A stretch of 11,620 bases of DNA from a virus (lineage: Duplodnaviria; Heunggongvirae; Uroviricota; Caudoviricetes): IMG/VR virus record IMGVR_UViG_2531839468_000021; one strand, given 5' to 3'. Position 1 is the first letter of the stretch; each line of letters starts with the position of its first letter. A model generated the notes under the pieces. The model was given only the letters and a program-made list of their open reading frames with translations. It was not told the origin of the DNA and searched no databases. Of the stretch, positions 1 to 7,868 are shown in pieces. The position numbers and the translations under genes were made by a program.

Positions 1-456
1 TTGTCGCTGACGGGGCATTATGCCGGAGTCACTGCCGGGCAGCTGTGGACGCTCAGTCGTGCTATTTCCGGGAATGGTATTACGCAACATGCTGCAGCCG
101 GTGCGCTGGCTCAGGTGGTGGGGAGTGGTGCATTTCGTGGAAACGATATCGGTATGGTGGCGAGAGCTGCCGCACAGATGGAGCGATCGGTTGGCCAGTC
201 GGTCAGCGATACCATAAATCAGTTTAAGCGGCTGAAGGATGATCCTGTAAATGCCGCGAAGGCTCTGGACAATGAGCTGCATTTTCTTACTGCCACTCAG
301 CTTGAGCAGATACGCGTCCTTGGGGAACAGGGGCGGTCCAGTGATGCGGCTCGGATAGCCATGTCTGCACTGGCAGAGGAAACCGGTCGACGTACTGCGG
401 ATATTGATAATAACCTCAATGCGCTGGGCAGTACGCTGAAGTACCTGTCTGACTGA
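1..456 (+). CDS. H: Tail tape measure protein (lambda gpH-like), internal fragment; 5' end lies upstream of the window; ends at an in-frame TGA at 454-456 that looks like a frame break rather than a true gene end
   Basis: ORF runs from the window edge in frame 1. The translation (…GTAEQ-type Ala/Gly-rich segment then …NNLNALGSTLKYLSD) aligns by recollection with the central part of lambda gpH just upstream of its …SMWDAVLDIGRPD motif. Position immediately upstream of M is as in lambda. Confidence 0.85.
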   Translation: MSLTGHYAGVTAGQLWTLSRAISGNGITQHAAAGALAQVVGSGAFRGNDIGMVARAAAQMERSVGQSVSDTINQFKRLKDDPVNAAKALDNELHFLTATQLEQIRVLGEQGRSSDAARIAMSALAEETGRRTADIDNNLNALGSTLKYLSD

Positions 457-2102
457 TGGAGCAGTTCTGGGATGCGGCCATGAATATTGGTCGTGAAGAC
501 TCGCTGGATGAACAGATTACCACTTTACAGGAGAAAGTGTCGCGGGCGAAAAGACTCCCCTGGACGGCATCATCTTCTCAGGTTGAATACGATCAGCAGC
601 GTCTTAACGATCTTCAGGAGAAAAAACGCCAGAAGGATCTGCAGGATGCAAAAGAGCAGGCAGAGCGGAATTATCAGGAGCAACAGAAACGACGTAATGC
701 TGAAAATGCTGCACTGAACCGGATGAATGAAACGGAAGCAGCACGACATCAGCGTGAAATTGCGCGTATTAATGCCATGCAGTACGCCGATCAGGCTGTC
801 AGGGATGCGGCGATACAACGTGAAAATGAACGTTACGAGAAAGCCCTGGCATCCGGTAAGAAAAAAACACGCGAAACCCGTAATGATGAGGCCACCCGGT
901 TATTGCTGCAGTACAGTCAGCAACAGGCACAGGTGGAAGGACAGATTGCTGCTGCCAGACAGTCAGCAGGCATTGCCACGGAAAGGATGACAGAAGCGCA
1001 TAAACAGCTTCTGGCTCTGCAGCAGCGCATCAGCGACCTGGACGGGAAAAAACTGACGGCAGATGAAAAGAGTGTACTGGCCCGTAAAGATGAACTGATT
1101 CAGGCACTGACGCTGCTGGATGTAAAACAGCAGGAGCTTCAGAAACAGACGGCACTCAACGAGCTGAAGAAAAAAACAATTCAGCTGACCAGTCAACTGG
1201 CTGAAGAAGAGCGCGCTCAGCGTCAGCAACATGACCTGGATATCGCCACGGTGGGTATGGGTGATCAGCAGCGGCAGCGACATCAGGTACAACTGAGTCT
1301 TCGCCAGAAATACCAGCAACAGCTGGAGCAGTTGAGGCGGGATAGTGAGCAGAAAGGGACATATAACACGGATGACTACAGAAAGGCCGAGCAGGCGCTG
1401 ACGGAGAGCCTGAACCGACAACTGAATGAGAATCGCCGTTACTGGCAACAGCTTGAAGTTGTGCAGGGTAACTGGAAAAACGGAGTCCTGCGTGCATTTC
1501 AGGATTTTACCGTGGATGCAGATAATACGGCAGGAACAGCAGAACAGGTGTTCTCGTCAGCCTTCAGCAACATGGGAAATGGCCTGGCAACTTTTGTCAC
1601 TACCGGCAAACTCAATTTCAAATCCTTCACCTCTTCTGTGCTGTCAGATATGGCGAAAATCCTGGCGCAGGCAACCATGATGAAATCGATAAAAGGGATT
1701 GGCAGTGTACTGGGATTTGATCTCAGCAGCCTTTCCCTGAATGCCAATGGGGGGATTTATCAGTCTGCTGATTTGAGTCGTTACAGTGGCACGGTGGTTA
1801 ACCGTCCGACGTTTTTTGCTTTTGCAAAAGGTGCAGGTGTGATGAGGGAAGCTGGGCCTGAAGCCATTCTGCCACTGCGTCGTGGTGCTGACGGTAAGCT
1901 GGGGGTTGTGGCGGATATTGGTGGTTCAGGTATGGCGATGTTTGCCCCGCAGTACAACATTGAGATCAATAACGATGGCACGAACGGGCAGATAGGTCCG
2001 GCTGCCCTGAAGGTGGTTTATGACCTCGGGAAAAAAGCAGCAGCGGACTTTATGCAACAGCAGTCCCGTGATGGTGGTCTGTTCTCTGGAGGTGGACGAT
2101 GA
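456..2102 (+). CDS. H: Tail tape measure protein (lambda gpH-like), C-terminal portion (548 aa), in frame 3 relative to the upstream fragment
   Basis: Begins MEQFWDAAMNIGRED (cf. lambda gpH …SMWDAVLDIGRPD). Long Q/E/K/R-rich coiled-coil region. C-terminus …NNDGTNGQIGPAALKVVYD…DGGLFSGGGR is the conserved gpH C-terminal signature. Stop TGA at 2100-2102 overlaps the M start (ATGA). Confidence 0.9.
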   Translation: MEQFWDAAMNIGREDSLDEQITTLQEKVSRAKRLPWTASSSQVEYDQQRLNDLQEKKRQKDLQDAKEQAERNYQEQQKRRNAENAALNRMNETEAARHQREIARINAMQYADQAVRDAAIQRENERYEKALASGKKKTRETRNDEATRLLLQYSQQQAQVEGQIAAARQSAGIATERMTEAHKQLLALQQRISDLDGKKLTADEKSVLARKDELIQALTLLDVKQQELQKQTALNELKKKTIQLTSQLAEEERAQRQQHDLDIATVGMGDQQRQRHQVQLSLRQKYQQQLEQLRRDSEQKGTYNTDDYRKAEQALTESLNRQLNENRRYWQQLEVVQGNWKNGVLRAFQDFTVDADNTAGTAEQVFSSAFSNMGNGLATFVTTGKLNFKSFTSSVLSDMAKILAQATMMKSIKGIGSVLGFDLSSLSLNANGGIYQSADLSRYSGTVVNRPTFFAFAKGAGVMREAGPEAILPLRRGADGKLGVVADIGGSGMAMFAPQYNIEINNDGTNGQIGPAALKVVYDLGKKAAADFMQQQSRDGGLFSGGGR

Positions 2103-2428
2103 AAACCTTCCGCTGGAAAGTGAAACCCGGTATGGATGTGGCTTCGGCCCCTTCCGTAAGAAAGGTGCGCTTTGGTGATGGCTATTCTCAGCGTGCGCCT
2201 GCCGGGCTGAACGCTGACCTGAAAACGTACAGCGTGACGCTTTCTGTTCCCCGCGAGGAGGCCACGGCACTGGAATCGTTTCTGGCTGAGCACGGGGGCT
2301 GGAAGGCCTTTCTGTGGACGCCGCCTTATGGCTATCGGCAGATAAAGGTGACCTGCGCAAAATGGTCGTCGCGGGTCAGTATGTTGCGTGTTGAGTTTAG
2401 CGCAGAGTTTGAACAGGTGGTGAACTGA
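2099..2428 (+). CDS. M: Minor tail protein M (109 aa)
   Basis: MKTFRWKVKPGMDVAS…RVEFSAEFEQVVN is essentially the lambda gpM sequence as I recall it, with the same length. GGAGG at 2088-2092 six nt upstream of ATG 2099. ATGA overlap with the H stop and TGATG overlap with the L start indicate translational coupling. Confidence 0.95.
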   Translation: MKTFRWKVKPGMDVASAPSVRKVRFGDGYSQRAPAGLNADLKTYSVTLSVPREEATALESFLAEHGGWKAFLWTPPYGYRQIKVTCAKWSSRVSMLRVEFSAEFEQVVN

Positions 2429-3125
2429 TGCAGGATATCCGACAGGACACACTGAATGAATGCACCCGTGCGGATCAGTCGGCCAGCGTGGTGCTCTGGG
2501 AAATCGATCTGACAGAGATCGGTGGAGAACGTTATTTTTTCTGTAATGAGCAGAACGAAAAAGGTGAGCCGGTCACCTGGCAGGGGAGACAATATCAGGC
2601 GTATCCCATTCAGGGGAGTGGTTTTGAACTGAATGGCAAAGGCACCAGTACGCGCCCCACGCTGGCAGTCTCTAACCTGTATGGCATGGTCACCGGGATG
2701 ACGGAAGATCTGCAGAGTCTGGTCGGCGGAACGGTGGTCAGGCGTAAGGTTTACGCCCGTTTTCTGGATGCGGTGAACTTCGTCAACGGAAACAGCGACG
2801 CCGATCCGGAGCAGGAGGTGATCAGTCGCTGGCGCATCGAGCAGTGCAGCGAACTGAGCGCGGTGAGTGCCTCTTTGTACTGTCCACGCCGACGGAAACG
2901 GACGGCGCTGTTTTTCCGGGACGTATCATGCTGGCCAACACCTGCACCTGGACCTATCGCGGCGATGAGTGCGGTTATCACGGTCCGGCTGTCGCGGATG
3001 AATATGACCAGCCAACGTCCGATATCACGAAGGATAAATGCAGCAAATGCCTGAGCGGTTGTAAGTTCCGCAATAACGTCGGCAACTTTGGCGGCTTCCT
3101 TTCCATTAACAAACTTTCGCAGTAA
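2428..3125 (+). pseudogene. L: Tail tip protein L (lambda gpL-like), interrupted by an apparent 1-nt deletion in a T run at about 2874-2877; frame-1 ORF 2428..3054 carries the N-terminal 149 aa, then frame-3 ORF 2844..3125 carries the authentic Cys-rich C-terminus
   Basis: N-terminus MQDIRQDTLNECTRADQSASVVLWEIDL… matches lambda gpL. After …SELSAVSAS the frame-1 translation becomes Arg-rich nonsense (LYCPRRRKRTALFF…), while frame 3 continues FVLSTPTETDGAVFPGRIMLANTCTWTYRGDECGY…CSKCLSGCKFRNNVGNFGGFLSINKLSQ, the conserved gpL C-terminal Cys cluster. Adding one T to the TTT at 2874-2876 restores a continuous 232-codon ORF, the lambda gpL length. Confidence 0.85.
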
Positions 3126-3130
3126 ATCCC

Positions 3131-3874
3131 ATGACACAGACAGAATCAGCGATTCTGGCGCACGCCCGGCGATGTGCGCCAGCGGAGTCGTGCGGCTTCG
3201 TGGTGAGAACGCCGGAGGAGGAAAGATATTTTCCCTGCGTGAATATCTCCGGTGAGCCGGAGGCGTATTTCCGTATGTCGCCGGAAGACTGGCTGCAGGC
3301 AGAAATGCAGGGTGAGATTGTGGCGCTGGTCCACAGCCACCCCGGTGGTCTGCCCTGGCTGAGTGAGGCCGACCGGCGGCTGCAGGTGCAGAGTGATTTG
3401 CCGTGGTGGCTGGTCTGCCGGGGGACGATTCATAAGTTCCGCTGTGTGCCGCATCTCACCGGGCGGCGTTTTGAGCACGGGGTGACAGACTGTTATACGC
3501 TGTTCCGCGATGCCTATCATCTTGCAGGTATCGATTTGCCGGATTTTTACCGACATGATGACTGGTGGAAATCAGGTCAGAATCTCTATCTGGATAATCT
3601 GGAGGCCACAGGGCTGTATCAGGTGCCGTTGTCATCAGCACAACCGGGCGATGTGCTGCTGTGCTGCTTTGGTTCATCGGTGCCGAATCATGCCGCCATT
3701 TACTGTGGTGACGGCGAGCTGCTGCACCATATTCCTGAACAACTGAGCAAACGAGAGAGGTATACCGACAAATGGCAGCGACGCACACACTCCCTCTGGC
3801 GTCACCAGGCATGGCACGCATCTGCCTTTACGGGGATTTACAACGATTTGGCCGCCGCATCGATCTGCGTGTGA
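3131..3874 (+). CDS. K: Tail tip assembly protein K (MPN/JAMM-like plus NlpC/P60-like domains), 247 aa from the first ATG; an internal Met at 3275 would give the 199-aa form
   Basis: Contains the HSHP…S…D JAMM-type motif (…VALVHSHPGGLPWLSEADRR…) and a downstream Cys/His-containing segment (…DCYTLFRDAYHLAG…NHAAIYCG…). Its 3' end overlaps the I start by 103 nt in another frame, the same overlap I recall for lambda K/I. Confidence 0.88.
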   Translation: MTQTESAILAHARRCAPAESCGFVVRTPEEERYFPCVNISGEPEAYFRMSPEDWLQAEMQGEIVALVHSHPGGLPWLSEADRRLQVQSDLPWWLVCRGTIHKFRCVPHLTGRRFEHGVTDCYTLFRDAYHLAGIDLPDFYRHDDWWKSGQNLYLDNLEATGLYQVPLSSAQPGDVLLCCFGSSVPNHAAIYCGDGELLHHIPEQLSKRERYTDKWQRRTHSLWRHQAWHASAFTGIYNDLAAASICV

Positions 3875-4413
3875 AAACGGGGGCCGAAGCCATCCGGGCG
3901 CTGGCCATGCAGATCCCGGCGTTTCGTCAGAAGCTGAGCGACGGCTGGTATCAGGTACGCATTGCCGGGCGTGATACAGGTGAAACGGAATTATCAGCCC
4001 GTCTTAATGAACCGCTGGCAAATGGTGCTGTGATCCATATCGTGCCGCGTCTGGCAGGAGCCAAAAGTGGCGGTGTGTTTCAGGCTGTGCTGGGGGCGGC
4101 TGTTATGGCGGTTGCTATATGGATGCCGGGGGTAGGAATTATGGCGAGTAATCTGCTGTTTTCTCTCGGTGCCAGTATGACGCTTGGCGGTGTTGCACAG
4201 ATGCTGGCCCCTAAACCCAAAACCCCCCGCACACAGACAACGGATAACGGCAAACAGAACACCTATTTTTCTTCACTGGATAATATGGTTGCCCAGGGCA
4301 ATGTTCTGCCCGTTCTGTACGGTGAAATGCGCGTGGGATCACGTGTGGTATCTCAGGAGATCAGCACAGCAGACGAAGGGGACGGTGGTCAGGTTGTGGT
4401 GATTGGTCGCTGA
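3772..4413 (+). CDS. I: Tail tip assembly protein I (213 aa)
   Basis: MAATHTLPLASPGMARICLYGDLQRFGRRIDLRVKTGAEAIRAL… with a hydrophobic central segment and conserved C-terminus …NVLPVLYGEMRVGSRVVSQEISTADEGDGGQVVVIGR. GAGAGG at 3755-3760 upstream of ATG 3772. The 60-nt gap to J matches the lambda arrangement. Confidence 0.9.
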   Translation: MAATHTLPLASPGMARICLYGDLQRFGRRIDLRVKTGAEAIRALAMQIPAFRQKLSDGWYQVRIAGRDTGETELSARLNEPLANGAVIHIVPRLAGAKSGGVFQAVLGAAVMAVAIWMPGVGIMASNLLFSLGASMTLGGVAQMLAPKPKTPRTQTTDNGKQNTYFSSLDNMVAQGNVLPVLYGEMRVGSRVVSQEISTADEGDGGQVVVIGR

Positions 4414-4431
4414 TGAAAAACGTTTTATGTG

Positions 4432-4452
4432 AAACCGCCTGCGGGCGGTTTT
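4432..4452 (+). other. Stem-loop in the I-J intergenic spacer (8-bp stem aaaccgcc/ggcggttt, 4-nt loop, then T run); possible attenuator or RNA-processing/stability element inside the late operon
   Basis: Read directly: left arm 4432-4439, loop 4440-4443 (tgcg), right arm 4444-4451, which ends in ttt and is followed by one more T at 4452. Preceded by the AT palindrome aaaacgtttt at 4417-4426. Confidence 0.5.
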
Positions 4453-4473
4453 GTCATTTATGGAGCGTGAAGA

Positions 4474-6441
4474 ATGGGTAAAGGCAGCAGTAAGGGGCAT
4501 ACCCCGCGCGAAGCGAAGGACAACCTGAAGTCCACGCAGTTGCTGAGTGTGATCGATGCCATCAGCGAAGGGCCGGTTGAAGGTCCGGTGGAGGGATTAA
4601 AAAGCGTGCTGCTGAACAGTACGCCGGTGCTGGACAGTGAGGGGAATACCAATATCTCCGGTGTCACGGTGGTTTTCCGGGCAGGTGAGCAGGAGCAGAC
4701 ACCGCCGGAGGGATTTGAATCCTCCGGCTCCGAGACGGTGCTGGGTACGGAAGTGAAGTACGACACGCCGATTACCCGGACCATCACGTCTGCAAACATC
4801 GACCGTCTGCGCTTTACCTTCGGTGTACAGGCACTGGTGGAAACCACCTCAAAGGGTGACCGGAATCCGTCGGAAGTCCGCCTGCTGGTTCAGATACAAC
4901 GTAACGGTGGCTGGGTGACGGAAAAAGACATCACCATTAAGGGCAAAACCACCTCGCAGTATCTGGCCTCGGTGGTGGTGGATAACCTGCCGCCGCGCCC
5001 GTTCAACATCCGGATGCGCAGGATGACGCCGGACAGCACCACAGACCAGCTGCAGAACAAAACGCTCTGGTCGTCATACACTGAAATCATCGATGTGAAA
5101 CAGTGCTACCCGAACACGGCACTGGTCGGCGTGCAGGTGGACTCGGAGCAGTTCGGCAGCCAGCAGGTGAGCCGTAATTATCATCTGCGCGGGCGTATTC
5201 TGCAGGTGCCGTCGAATTATAACCCGCAGACGCGGCAATACAGCGGTATCTGGGACGGAACGTTTAAGCCGGCATACAGCAACAACCCGGCCTGGTGTCT
5301 GTGGGATATGCTGACCCACCCGCGCTACGGCATGGGGAAACGTCTTGGTGCGGCGGATGTGGATAAATGGGCGCTGTATGTCATCGGCCAGTACTGCGAC
5401 CAGTCAGTGCCGGACGGCTTTGGTGGCACGGAGCCGCGCATCACCTGTAATGCGTACCTGACCACACAGCGCAAGGCGTGGGATGTGCTCAGTGATTTCT
5501 GCTCGGCGATGCGCTGTATGCCGGTATGGAACGGGCAGACGCTGACGTTCGTGCAGGACCGACCATCAGATAAGGTATGGACCTATAACCGCAGTAATGT
5601 GGTGATGCCGGATGATGGCGCGCCGTTCCGCTACAGATTCAGCGCCCTGAAGGACCGCCATAATGCCGTTGAGGTGAACTGGATTGACCCGAACAACGGC
5701 TGGGAGACGGCGACAGAGCTTGTTGAAGATACGCGGGCCCTTGCCCGTTACGGTCGTAATGTCACGAAGATGGATGCCTTTGGCTGTACCAGCCGGGGGC
5801 AGGCACACCGCGCCGGGCTGTGGCTGATTAAAACAGAACTGCTGGAAACGCAGACCGTGGACTTCAGCGTGGGGGCCGAAGGGCTTCGCCATGTGCCGGG
5901 CGATGTCATTGAAATCTGCGATGATGACTATGCCGGTATCCGCACCGGCGGGCGCGTGCTGGCGGTAAACAGCCAGACCCGGACGCTGACGCTCGACCGT
6001 GAAATCACGCTGCCATCTTCCGGCACCACGCTGATAAGCCTGGTTGACGGGCAGGGGAGTCCGGTCAGCGTGGAGGTTCAGTCCGTCACCGACGGCGTGA
6101 AGGTGAAAGTGAGCCTGGTTCCTGACGGTGTTGCTGAATACAGCGTGTGGGGGCTGAAGCTGCCGACGCTGCGCCAGCGACTGTTCCGCTGCGTGAGTAT
6201 CCGTGAGAACGACGACGGCACGTATGCCATCACCGCCGTGCAGCATGTGCCGGAAAAAGAGGCCATCGTGGATAACGGGGCGCACTTTGACGGCGACCAG
6301 AGCGGCACGGTGAATGGTGTCACGCCGCCAGCGGTGCAGCACCTGACTGCCGAAGTCACCGCAGACAGCGGGGAGTATCAGGTACTGGCCCGCTGGGACA
6401 CGCCGAAGGTGGTGAAGGGCGTGAGTTTATGCTTCGCCTGA
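4474..6441 (+). CDS. J: Host specificity / central tail fibre protein J, N-terminal 655 aa; ends at a frame break
   Basis: [34 protein letters not shown]… and the following ~650 residues are near-identical to lambda gpJ by recollection. GGAG at 4462-4465 upstream of ATG 4474. The ORF terminates as …[11 protein letters not shown], where lambda gpJ continues. Confidence 0.9.
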
Positions 6442-7868
6442 CCGTGGCAGCGGATGACGGCAGTGAGCGGCTGGTCAGCACGGCCCGGACGACGGAAACC
6501 ACGTACCGCTTCACGCAACTGGCGCTGGGGCGGTACACGCTGACAGTCCGGGCGGTAAATGCGTGGGGACAGCAGGGCGATCCGGCGTCGGTATCGTTCC
6601 GGATTGCCGCACCGGCAGCACCGTCGAGGATTGAGCTGACGCCGGGCTATTTTCAGATAACCGCCACGCCGCATCTTGCCGTTTATGACCCGACGGTACA
6701 GTTTGAGTTCTGGTTCTCGGAAACGCGGATTACCGATATCAGGCAGGTTGAAACCACAGCCCGCTACCTTGGTACGGGACTGTACTGGATAGCCGCCAGT
6801 ATCAATATCAAACCGGGCCATGATTATTACTTTTATATCCGCAGTGTGAACACCGTTGGCAAATCGGCATTCGTGGAGGCCGTCGGTCGGGCGAGCGATG
6901 ATGCGGAAGGTTACCTGGATTTTTTCAAAGGCAAGATAACCGAATCCCATCTCGGTAAAGAGCTGCTGGAAAAAGTCGAGCTGACGGAGGATAACGCCAG
7001 CAAACTGGAGGAGTTTTCGAAAGAGTGGAAAGACGCCAGTGATAAATGGAATGCCATGTGGGGCGTCAAAATTGAGCAGACCAAAGACGGCAAACATTAT
7101 GTCGCGGGTATTGGCCTCAGCATGGAGGACACGGAGGAAGGCAAGCTGAGCCAGTTTCTGGTTGCCGCTAACCGTATCGCGTTTATTGACCCGGCAAACG
7201 GGAATGAAACGCCGATGTTTGTGGCGCAGGGCAACCAGATATTCATGAACGACGTGTTCCTGAAACGCCTGACGGCCCCCACCATTACCAGTGGTGGAAA
7301 TACACCGGTATTTTCCCTGACACCGGACGGGCGGCTGACGGCGAAAAATGCCGATATCAGCGGTAACGTGAATGCGAACTCCGGGACGCTCAACAACGTC
7401 ACGATTAACGAGAACTGTCGGGTTCTGGGAAAATTGTCCGCCAACCAGATTGAAGGCGATCTCGTTAAAACAGTGGGCAAAGCTTTCCCCCGGGACTCCC
7501 GTGCACCGGAGCGGTGGCCATCAGGAACCATTACCGTCAGGGTTTATGACGATCAGCCGTTTGACCGGCAGATTGTTATTCCGGCGGTGGCATTCAGCGG
7601 CGCTAAACATGAGAAAGAGCATACTGATATTTACTCCTCATGCCGTCTGATAGTACGGAAAAACGGTGCTGAAATTTATAACCGTACCGCGCTGGATAAT
7701 ACGCTGATTTACAGTGGTGTTATTGATATGCCTGCCGGTCACGGTCACATGACACTGGAGTTTTCGGTGTCAGCATGGCTGGTAAATAACTGGTATCCCA
7801 CAGCAAGTATCAGCGATTTGCTGGTTGTGGTGATGAAGAAAGCCACCGCAGGCATCAGTATCAGCTGA
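6429..7868 (+). CDS. J: Host specificity protein J, C-terminal 479 aa in frame 3, including a divergent C-terminal receptor-binding region
   Basis: [34 protein letters not shown]… continues the gpJ sequence directly after the break. The combined length (about 1131 codons) matches lambda gpJ. The last ~150 residues (…[24 protein letters not shown]…[10 protein letters not shown]) keep the gpJ C-terminal architecture but differ substantially from the lambda LamB-binding domain. Confidence 0.9.

What the first reader, a model, noticed from the sequence alone, without database searches (positions are those of the whole stretch)
1..7868. Three tail genes (H, L, J) each broken by an apparent 1-nt deletion in an otherwise lambda-like module
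All three disruptions move the reading frame from 1 to 3, which means one base is missing each time. Two sit in short T runs (TTT at 2874-2876 in L and TTT at 6426-6428 in J) and the third is at ctgatg (452-456) in H. In each case inserting one base reconstitutes a full-length protein of lambda-like size. The flanking protein sequence is very highly conserved, so these are recent events or artefacts. Either the assembly carries homopolymer indel errors, or this is a defective prophage whose tail cannot assemble while lom and the cargo gene remain intact, which would point to domestication of the element for its morons.
Basis: partly seen in the sequence, partly recalled or inferred. Interest (0 to 1): 0.6.

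Follow-up and report, generated by a model that had tools for sequence, protein, structure and literature searches.

The report
Probable assembly errors in prophage tail genes
The three broken tail genes are truly in this sequence, but they occur in only one 2011 draft assembly of a pig E. coli strain while near-identical prophages in sister strains are intact, so they are most likely sequencing or assembly errors rather than a domesticated prophage.

Summary
The window is bases 56-11675 of draft contig AFDT01000021.1 (porcine ETEC 3030-2). It holds a lambda-like tail module (H-M-L-K-I-J-lom-stf) beside bioA.

All three frame breaks (frame 1 to 3) are present.
- L is a plain TTTT-to-TTT loss. 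Repair gives 232 aa, identical to the sister strains.
- J lacks one base at 6425/6426, with a paralogue-type substitution 5 nt upstream. Repair gives 1131 aa.
- H is not a simple deletion. It is an 80-nt mosaic of two natural H alleles containing a chimeric TGA codon and a one-base loss.

Sister assemblies with the same prophage, insertion site and cargo have intact H, L and J. They differ from each other by 0-2 substitutions and no indels over 13.5 kb.

The source carries seven private one-base deletions and no insertions. Three are in the window, one is 24 nt upstream, and three are just downstream. It also carries seven private substitutions. All lie in prophage DNA; the adjacent 8.8 kb of chromosome has none.

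The truncated L and N-terminal J proteins are found on no other contig in the collection. Neighbouring accession blocks were 454 Titanium data assembled with Celera.

Best reading: artefact, about 0.7. A truly defective prophage is about 0.25. The result is ordinary either way.

The parts
1..456 (+). Middle part of tape-measure gene H, frame 1, ending at an in-frame TGA (454-456). The contig itself starts only 55 nt upstream.
   Evidence: ORF list. Pfam TMP_2 on the called gene. Corresponds to residues 322 onward of the 1021-aa sister H.
444..522 (+). H lesion: a fine-scale mosaic of two natural H alleles. It has allele-2 bases at 444, 453, 455, 462, 463 and 522; a chimeric TGA codon at 454-456 (TTA x TGG); and one base missing at 460-465 (AGTCGT / AAGCAG becomes AGCAG).
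   Evidence: Alignment A2 and allele table. The sequence is absent from viral, metagenome and GTDB genome contigs, from phages and from 5426 complete E. coli genomes.
456..2102 (+). C-terminal 548 codons of H in frame 3. Its ATG overlaps the TGA (TGATG).
   Evidence: Pfam TMP_4 and Tape_meas_lam_C.
2099..2428 (+). Gene M (minor tail protein), intact.
   Evidence: Pfam Phage_min_tail. 109 aa in the sisters.
2428..3125 (+). Gene L, broken by TTTT to TTT at 2874-2876. The frame-1 ORF runs to 3054 and the rest is in frame 3 to 3125.
   Evidence: The repaired product is 232 aa and identical to the sister's. The truncated 208-aa product occurs on this contig only.
3131..3874 (+). Gene K (JAB/NlpC-P60 peptidase), intact.
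   Evidence: The exact protein is present on many contigs.
3772..4413 (+). Gene I (tail assembly), intact.
   Evidence: Pfam Lambda_tail_I.
4474..7868 (+). Gene J (tip attachment protein), broken at 6425/6426 (GAGCTTT to GAGTTT), with a paralogue-type G-to-C substitution at 6420. The ORFs are 4474-6441 (frame 1) and 6429-7868 (frame 3).
   Evidence: The repaired product is 1131 aa with one residue changed. The 655-aa product occurs on this contig only. A natural GAGTTTT allele exists.
7936..8535 (+). lom (Ail/Lom outer-membrane protein), an open ORF with one private non-synonymous change at 8338.
8600..10184 (+). Side tail fibre genes (a 437-aa collagen-like N-terminal part and an 89-aa Phage_fiber_C part). 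Bases 8632-8691 carry 10 substitutions relative to the sisters that match the DEC9B-type allele.
10412..11620 (-). Cargo gene of 402 aa, an intact ORF of unknown function. It is identical in 19 contigs, including sisters whose tail genes are intact.
   Evidence: No NCBIfam family and no Pfam family reaching its cut-off. PGAP calls it 'hypothetical protein'.

Best explanation
The frame breaks are most likely errors of one old draft assembly, not features of the organism's DNA.

The window comes from contig AFDT01000021.1 of porcine ETEC strain 3030-2. This assembly was very probably made from 454 Titanium paired-end reads with Celera Assembler 6.0. The contig begins inside gene H, which suggests a repeat boundary.

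In this prophage stretch the consensus appears to have been built from few reads and/or from reads of more than one lambdoid prophage. Two kinds of error would follow. Homopolymer lengths were under-called (L, and most of the extra sites outside the window). Where two natural alleles differ by closely spaced changes, a column-by-column or run-length consensus became a chimera one base short (H and J).

Shown here: the lesions are private to this assembly, the sisters are intact and almost invariant, the events are confined to prophage DNA, and the H and J lesions are linked to paralogue-type bases. Inferred: the sequencing platform, and the way the consensus went wrong.
For: 1. Source and uniqueness. 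The window is contig positions 56-11675 of GCA_000225085.2. The truncated L (208 aa) and the N-terminal J product (655 aa) are found on this contig alone in the whole gene collection. None of 5426 complete E. coli genomes shares any of the three gaps.
2. Intact sisters. L023 and L007 carry the same prophage, with identical 402-aa cargo. L007 also has the same bioA-side insertion site and an identical 8.8-kb chromosomal flank. Both have H of 1021 aa, L of 232 aa and J of 1131 aa. L009 is intact across the J site.
3. The source is an outlier. The sisters differ from each other by 0-2 substitutions and 0 indels over 7.8-13.5 kb. The source differs from them by 25 substitutions and 3 one-base gaps in the window. 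It has 4 more one-base deletions just outside the window: GG to G 24 nt upstream, and A6 to A5, G3 to G2 and C4 to C3 downstream. That is seven deletions and no insertions. Five of the six deletions tested lie in runs of 3 or more (P = 7e-4); the seventh, found afterwards, shortens GG to G.
4. Rate. The rate of private events exceeds the sister-to-sister rate about ninefold (Poisson P = 6e-11). All of the private events counted lie in prophage DNA and none in 8.8 kb of chromosome (P = 4e-5). Ordinary mutation since the split from the sisters cannot supply this.
5. Mosaic H lesion. It mixes two natural alleles at single-base scale. TGA combines TTA and TGG. AGCAG is what remains if both gap columns of A-GTCGT / AAG-CAG are dropped.
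6. J and L run lengths. The J lesion has the paralogue base C at 6420, and the run lengths C0,T3 lie between the natural alleles C1,T3 and C0,T4. L has C1,T3, between the natural alleles C1,T4 and C2,T3.
7. Platform. AFDT lies inside the accession block AFDQ-AFEA. The published members of that block were sequenced with 3-kb paired-end 454 Titanium and assembled with Celera 6.0 at the same centre. 454 homopolymer-length errors are established knowledge.
Against: - No reads were available, so nothing here is proven at read level.
- The adjacent 8.8 kb of chromosome in the same contig has no error at all, so the assembly is not uniformly poor. The artefact must therefore be specific to the prophage or repeat, and that is inferred, not shown.
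- Illumina contigs of sisters L023 and L007 run straight through H-J. This argues against a near-identical second copy in those strains. Whether 3030-2 has an extra prophage with the second H allele is unknown.
- Seven substitutions (351, 639, 1281, 1845, 5637, 8338, 8596) match no allele seen. They are transition-rich (5:2), and 454 consensus errors are rarely substitutions.
- Losses of 1 to 0 (J) and 2 to 1 (upstream H) are not the typical long-homopolymer miscall.
- The platform of AFDT itself was not documented in any paper found.
Confidence: 0.7

Rival explanations
1. The lesions are real, independent mutations. In strain 3030-2 the prophage next to bioA is defective: H, L and J were each knocked out by small deletions (plus a nonsense codon in H) under relaxed selection, while lom and the cargo gene stay open.
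For: Defective lambdoid prophages with point lesions are common in E. coli (established knowledge). PGAP marks H as frameshifted in strain C3, and relative L018 has large deletions in H and J. lom, stf and the 402-aa cargo ORF are open. The seven unexplained private substitutions are transition-rich with about 2 synonymous to 4 non-synonymous, which is compatible with neutral decay. The chromosomal part of the same contig is error-free.
Against: No clone-mate or any other contig shares a single lesion. The sisters are nearly invariant over 13.5 kb and the chromosomal flank is identical. The time since divergence is therefore far too short for 7 deletions plus 7 substitutions in 13.5 kb (Poisson P = 6e-11). 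Private substitutions are absent from the 5.2-kb right arm of the same prophage (P = 0.002). The same cargo sits beside intact tails in the sisters, so nothing links cargo retention to tail loss.
Confidence: 0.13
2. The lesions are real but were made by recombination. Short gene-conversion tracts from another resident lambdoid prophage were copied into H, J and the start of stf. Patchy repair of the mismatched heteroduplex left a chimeric stop codon and one-base losses.
For: The H patch (444-522), position 6420 beside the J gap, the 8632-8691 patch and 9622 all carry bases of other natural alleles. Removing both one-base loops of A-GTCGT / AAG-CAG would give the observed AGCAG (inference). Exchange between lambdoid prophages is well known.
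Against: Conversion between AGC TTT and AGT TTT is a plain mismatch and cannot remove a base. The L gap and the four gaps outside the window have no paralogue-type base nearby. The alternation of allele 2, allele 1, allele 2 within 80 nt needs several events. Nothing like it is seen in any sister.
Confidence: 0.12
3. The breaks are functional. Either programmed -1 ribosomal frameshifting in L and J, or translational coupling across TGATG in H, yields the full set of tail proteins from split genes.
For: All three shifts have the same sign (frame 1 to 3). The H stop overlaps an ATG (TGATG at 454-458). Lambda-like tails do use one programmed -1 shift, in G-T (established knowledge).
Against: There is no X XXY YYZ slippery heptamer at the L site (GCC TCT TTG) or the J site (GTG AGT TTA) in the sequence itself. 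The arrangement exists in a single contig and in none of thousands of relatives. A tape measure in two pieces has no precedent in this family.
Confidence: 0.02

Closest known systems
Homopolymer-length and collapsed-repeat consensus errors in 454 pyrosequencing draft assemblies
   Same: There are only one-base indels. Six of the seven shorten runs of two or more identical bases. They are private to one 2011 draft whose neighbouring accessions are 454 Titanium / Celera 6.0. They sit in a repeat-prone prophage tail module, in a contig that starts inside gene H.
   Different: The adjacent unique chromosome is error-free. Seven unexplained substitutions accompany the indels. Two losses are 1 to 0 and 2 to 1 rather than in long runs. 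The platform of this particular assembly is inferred, not documented.
Defective (cryptic) lambdoid prophages of E. coli that keep moron or effector cargo, such as the defective prophage pool of O157:H7 Sakai
   Same: It is a lambda-like tail module with disrupted essential genes beside open lom and cargo genes, integrated next to bio.
   Different: Known defective prophages share their lesions across clone-mates and usually show larger deletions or IS insertions, as in L018. Here every lesion is private to one assembly, and the sister prophages are intact.
Phage lambda tail genes H-M-L-K-I-J-lom-stf
   Same: Same gene order and the same Pfam families (TMP_2, Tape_meas_lam_C, Phage_min_tail, Phage_tail_L, NLPC_P60, Lambda_tail_I, GpJ domains, Ail_Lom). 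It is 92-95% identical in DNA to the phage cdtI, mEp460 and 434 modules.
   Different: H is 1021 aa in this group, against 853 aa in lambda (own knowledge). The side fibre is a short collagen-like 437-aa form, followed by effector-type cargo.

Membership tests
Sequencing/assembly artefact (454 + Celera consensus error) | The lesions are absent from independent assemblies of the same element | tested here: met
   L023, L007 and L009 have the extra base at every site. The truncated L and N-terminal J proteins are on one contig only. 0 of 5426 complete genomes share them.
Sequencing/assembly artefact (454 + Celera consensus error) | One-base indels concentrated in homopolymer runs | tested here: met
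   Seven deletions: A6, C4, T4, G3, T3 (or A2), G2 and C1 each lose one base. Five of the six tested lie in runs of 3 or more, against 17% of bases in such runs (P = 7e-4).
Sequencing/assembly artefact (454 + Celera consensus error) | The assembly was made on an indel-prone platform | tested here: inconclusive
   AFDT is strain 3030-2. The flanking accession blocks AFDQ, AFDR, AFDU-AFDW and AFDY-AFEA were 454 Titanium / Celera 6.0. No paper states the method for AFDT itself.
Sequencing/assembly artefact (454 + Celera consensus error) | The reads disagree with or only weakly support the consensus at the sites | not testable with these tools
   No read data are accessible.
Defective (cryptic) lambdoid prophage | Inactivating lesions in essential morphogenesis genes are present in the organism's DNA | not testable with these tools
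   They are present in the deposited contig. Their presence in the strain needs reads or resequencing.
Defective (cryptic) lambdoid prophage | The lesions are inherited, that is shared by clone-mates carrying the same prophage | tested here: not met
   Sisters with the same prophage and identical cargo are intact: L007, which also shares the insertion site and an identical flank, and L023. L009 is intact at the J site.
Defective (cryptic) lambdoid prophage | The divergence is consistent with time-dependent decay | tested here: not met
   There are 0 changes in 8.8 kb of flank and 0-2 among the sisters, against the private events in the prophage part.
Programmed -1 ribosomal frameshift | A slippery X XXY YYZ heptamer at the shift site, conserved among relatives | tested here: not met
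   The sites read GCC TCT TTG (L) and GTG AGT TTA (J). The split arrangement is found in no relative.
Lambda-like siphovirus tail module | The gene order H-M-L-K-I-J with the corresponding protein families | tested here: met
   Pfam families on the called genes. 92-98% DNA identity to annotated modules.

The most novel reading that the evidence does not exclude
The lesions are real and were created in one step each by very short gene-conversion tracts between co-resident lambdoid prophages. Patchy heteroduplex repair between two in-frame alleles produced a chimeric stop codon and one-base losses. Prophage-prophage recombination would then itself be a mutagenic route that kills a tail module while leaving cargo intact.
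Probability: 0.1. Interest if true: 0.3.

Novelty: not a real feature. Interest (0 to 1): 0.06.

Why it matters
It matters mainly as a caution. Frameshifted tail genes in old pyrosequencing drafts should not be read as prophage domestication without read-level support. Comparison with sister assemblies is a quick control.

If the lesions were real, this would be one more defective lambdoid prophage in a porcine ETEC. That is already a well-known kind of element. The intact sisters show that the cargo does not depend on tail loss.

Tried and rejected
1. A hypothetical intact H allele (GAC CTG ATG GAG CAG, giving DLMEQFW) that would make the H break a single C loss. It was not found in viral contigs, metagenome contigs, GTDB genomes, phages or complete E. 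coli genomes. It was replaced by the two-allele mosaic seen.
2. Templated mutation from a nearby repeat. There is no second copy of the H-site 19-mer in the window with up to 3 mismatches, and no copy of the 17-mer in any fetched locus outside the source contig.
3. A uniformly error-prone assembly. This is rejected because the 8.8-kb chromosomal flank is identical to sister L007. The shorter bioA and bioD gene calls in the source turned out to be annotation differences on identical DNA.
4. General collapse of two prophage copies. This is unlikely, because only about 18 of the hundreds of expected paralogue-type bases appear, and the sister contigs are unbroken through H-J.
5. Literature search for the sequencing method of AFDT / GCA_000225085. 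Only the strain name was found. The method comes from the neighbouring accession block.
6. Function of the 402-aa cargo. No NCBIfam family and no Pfam family reaching its cut-off. Not pursued further.
7. An allele with AAA in place of AAG at the upstream GG-to-G site. It was not found in viral contigs, so the run-length-chimera idea is unsupported for that site.
Full report
**What is in the window.** The ORF map shows a lambda-like tail module on the + strand:
- H: 1-456 and 456-2102
- M: 2099-2428
- L: 2428-3054, with its remainder to 3125
- K: 3131-3874
- I: 3772-4413
- J: 4474-6441 and 6429-7868
- lom: 7936-8535
- a short collagen-like side fibre: 8600-9913 and 9915-10184
- a 402-aa ORF on the - strand: 10412-11620

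These come, and the Pfam families on the called genes agree. The DNA is 92-95% identical to many E. coli prophages and to phages cdtI, mEp460 and 434.

**Check of the observation.** All relatives aligned have one more base at each of the three places, and each break moves the frame from 1 to 3.
- L is a clean TTTT-to-TTT loss at 2874-2876. Adding a T gives 232 aa, identical to the sister protein.
- In J the base missing relative to the sisters is a lone C (GAGCTTT to GAGTTT). A G-to-C change at 6420 lies 5 nt upstream. Repair gives 1131 aa with one residue changed.
- H is more complicated. Restoring the missing base still leaves an in-frame TGA at 454-456, where the sisters have TTA.
- A fourth one-base loss in H (GG to G) lies 24 nt upstream of the window, within the first 55 nt of the contig.

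**Where the sequence comes from.** Exact-protein look-ups place the window at positions 56-11675 of AFDT01000021.1. This is a 53.7-kb contig of draft assembly GCA_000225085.2.
- The prophage lies next to ybhB-bioA-bioBFCD-uvrB.
- AFDT is porcine ETEC strain 3030-2 (PMC4358887).
- No paper gives its sequencing method.
- The accession blocks on both sides (AFDQ, AFDR, AFDU-AFDW, AFDY-AFEA) were produced at the same centre. They used 3-kb paired-end 454 Titanium reads assembled with Celera 6.0 (PMC3491183).
- I infer that AFDT was made the same way. This is an inference.

**Sister prophages.** The identical 402-aa cargo protein and the exact K protein led to independent assemblies that carry the same prophage. 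L007 also has the same insertion site and an identical chromosomal flank.
- L023 and L007 have H of 1021 aa, L of 232 aa and J of 1131 aa.
- L009 is intact across the J site.
- L023 and L007 differ by 2 substitutions and no indel over 13,462 bp. L023 and L009 are identical over 7,836 bp.
- L007 differs from L009-L012 by 0-7 substitutions and no indel.

**The source as an outlier.** Against this background the source stands out.
- Over the window it differs from L023 by 25 substitutions and exactly the three one-base gaps.
- Against L007 it has three more one-base deletions just right of the window (A6 to A5, G3 to G2, C4 to C3). It has no difference at all in 8.8 kb of chromosome.
- With the upstream loss this makes seven deletions and no insertion.
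- Five of the six deletions tested lie in runs of three or more bases (P = 7e-4).
- All the private events counted lie in the prophage part (P = 4e-5). Their rate is about nine times the sister-to-sister rate (Poisson P = 6e-11).
- The truncated L and N-terminal J products exist on no other contig of the collection. None of 5426 complete E. coli genomes shares a gap.

**Anatomy of the lesions.** The cluster at the H site first looked unique, but it is not random. A second natural H allele (strains 4114 and BCE049) reads GAC TGG TGG AAG CAG TTC where the sisters read GAT TTA TGG AGT CGT TTC.
- The window reads GAC TGA TGG AG- CAG TTC.
- It has allele-2 bases at 444, 453, 455, 462, 463 and 522, but sister bases at 456, 501 and 512-513.
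- The stop codon TGA is therefore a chimera of TTA and TGG.
- AGCAG is what remains if both gap columns of the alignment A-GTCGT / AAG-CAG are dropped.
- At J, the C at 6420 is the state of other natural alleles. Natural alleles with GAG TTTT also exist. The window's C0,T3 thus lies between C1,T3 and C0,T4.
- At L, the window's C1,T3 lies between the sisters' C1,T4 and the cdtI allele's C2,T3.
- A patch at 8632-8691 and position 9622 also carry bases of DEC9B-type alleles.
- Seven substitutions (351, 639, 1281, 1845, 5637, 8338, 8596) match nothing seen. Two are synonymous, four non-synonymous and one intergenic.

**Interpretation.** Any reading in which the lesions are real must place 7 deletions, 7 unique substitutions and several paralogue-type patches in about 13.5 kb of one isolate's prophage. 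Meanwhile its chromosome flank and its sisters' prophages stayed essentially unchanged.
- Ordinary mutation cannot do that in the time available.
- Old decay in an unsampled lineage is contradicted by the kilobases of perfect identity to the sisters between events.
- It is also contradicted by the absence of the lesions from every other assembly.
- Gene conversion explains the paralogue-type bases. It does not explain the J base loss, the L loss or the four outside gaps.
- An error-prone consensus over a repeat-prone prophage stretch of a 454/Celera draft explains all classes of event with one cause. The contig starting inside H fits this.
- The weak points of the artefact reading are the clean chromosomal flank, the seven unexplained transition-rich substitutions, and the lack of reads.

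I put the artefact at about 0.7, real lesions of either origin at about 0.25, and functional recoding at about 0.02. There is no slippery heptamer at the L or J site and the arrangement is not conserved.

**The domestication idea.** This has no positive support. The same cargo gene sits next to intact tail genes in every sister. The cargo itself has no recognisable family, and PGAP annotates it as hypothetical.

**Comparison with known things, and verdict.** The element is an ordinary member of the lambda-like prophages of E. coli. The disruptions match the known error profile of pyrosequencing drafts better than they match known defective prophages. Those share their lesions among clone-mates and usually show larger deletions; relative L018 is an example. 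Either way the finding is not novel. Interest is low.

Noticed in passing
L005:1-55 (contig AFDT01000021.1 positions 1-55, just upstream of window position 1): A fourth frame-breaking one-base loss in gene H (CAGAAGGAGGGGG to CAGAAGAGGGGG) lies 24 nt before the window. The contig itself begins inside H, which suggests a repeat boundary in the assembly.
   Followed up: yes
L008:9369, 9642, 9672 (contig 12307, 12034, 12004; 330-630 nt beyond the right end of the window): Three more private one-base deletions (A6 to A5, G3 to G2, C4 to C3) fall within 303 nt. They lie between the cargo gene and an NleD-like gene, in the source assembly only.
   Followed up: yes
window 8632-8691: Ten substitutions in 60 nt at the start of the side tail fibre gene differ from all sisters but match the DEC9B prophage allele (L003). 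This is either a short recombination tract or a stretch of paralogue-derived consensus.
   Followed up: partly
window 10412-11620 (- strand) and L007:8111-8809: The cargo is a 402-aa protein with no NCBIfam family and no Pfam family reaching its cut-off. A Peptidase_M91 (NleD-like type III effector family) gene follows further right. Such effector-type cargo is unexpected in a porcine ETEC, and I did not check whether the strain has a type III secretion system.
   Followed up: no
L018 (CP057589.1, 3844822-3865565): A close relative of this tail module in a complete genome lacks most of H and most of J through large deletions. This is what a truly degraded copy of this prophage looks like.
   Followed up: partly
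L008:2093-2731 and 5840-7072 versus L007:2090-2767 and 5780-7069: bioD and bioA are called shorter in the source assembly (212 and 410 aa) than in the sisters (225 and 429 aa), although the DNA is identical. This is a gene-calling difference, not a lesion.
   Followed up: yes
window 1-2102 versus L023:5906-8971: The tape-measure protein of this phage group is 1021 aa, well above the 853 aa I recall for lambda H, so a longer tail is expected. 'Lambda-like size' does not hold for H.
   Followed up: no
window 351, 639, 1281, 1845, 5637, 8338, 8596: Seven single substitutions (5 transitions, 2 transversions) occur at positions invariant in about 20 diverse relatives. Neither paralogue mixing nor typical 454 errors explain them.
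   Followed up: partly
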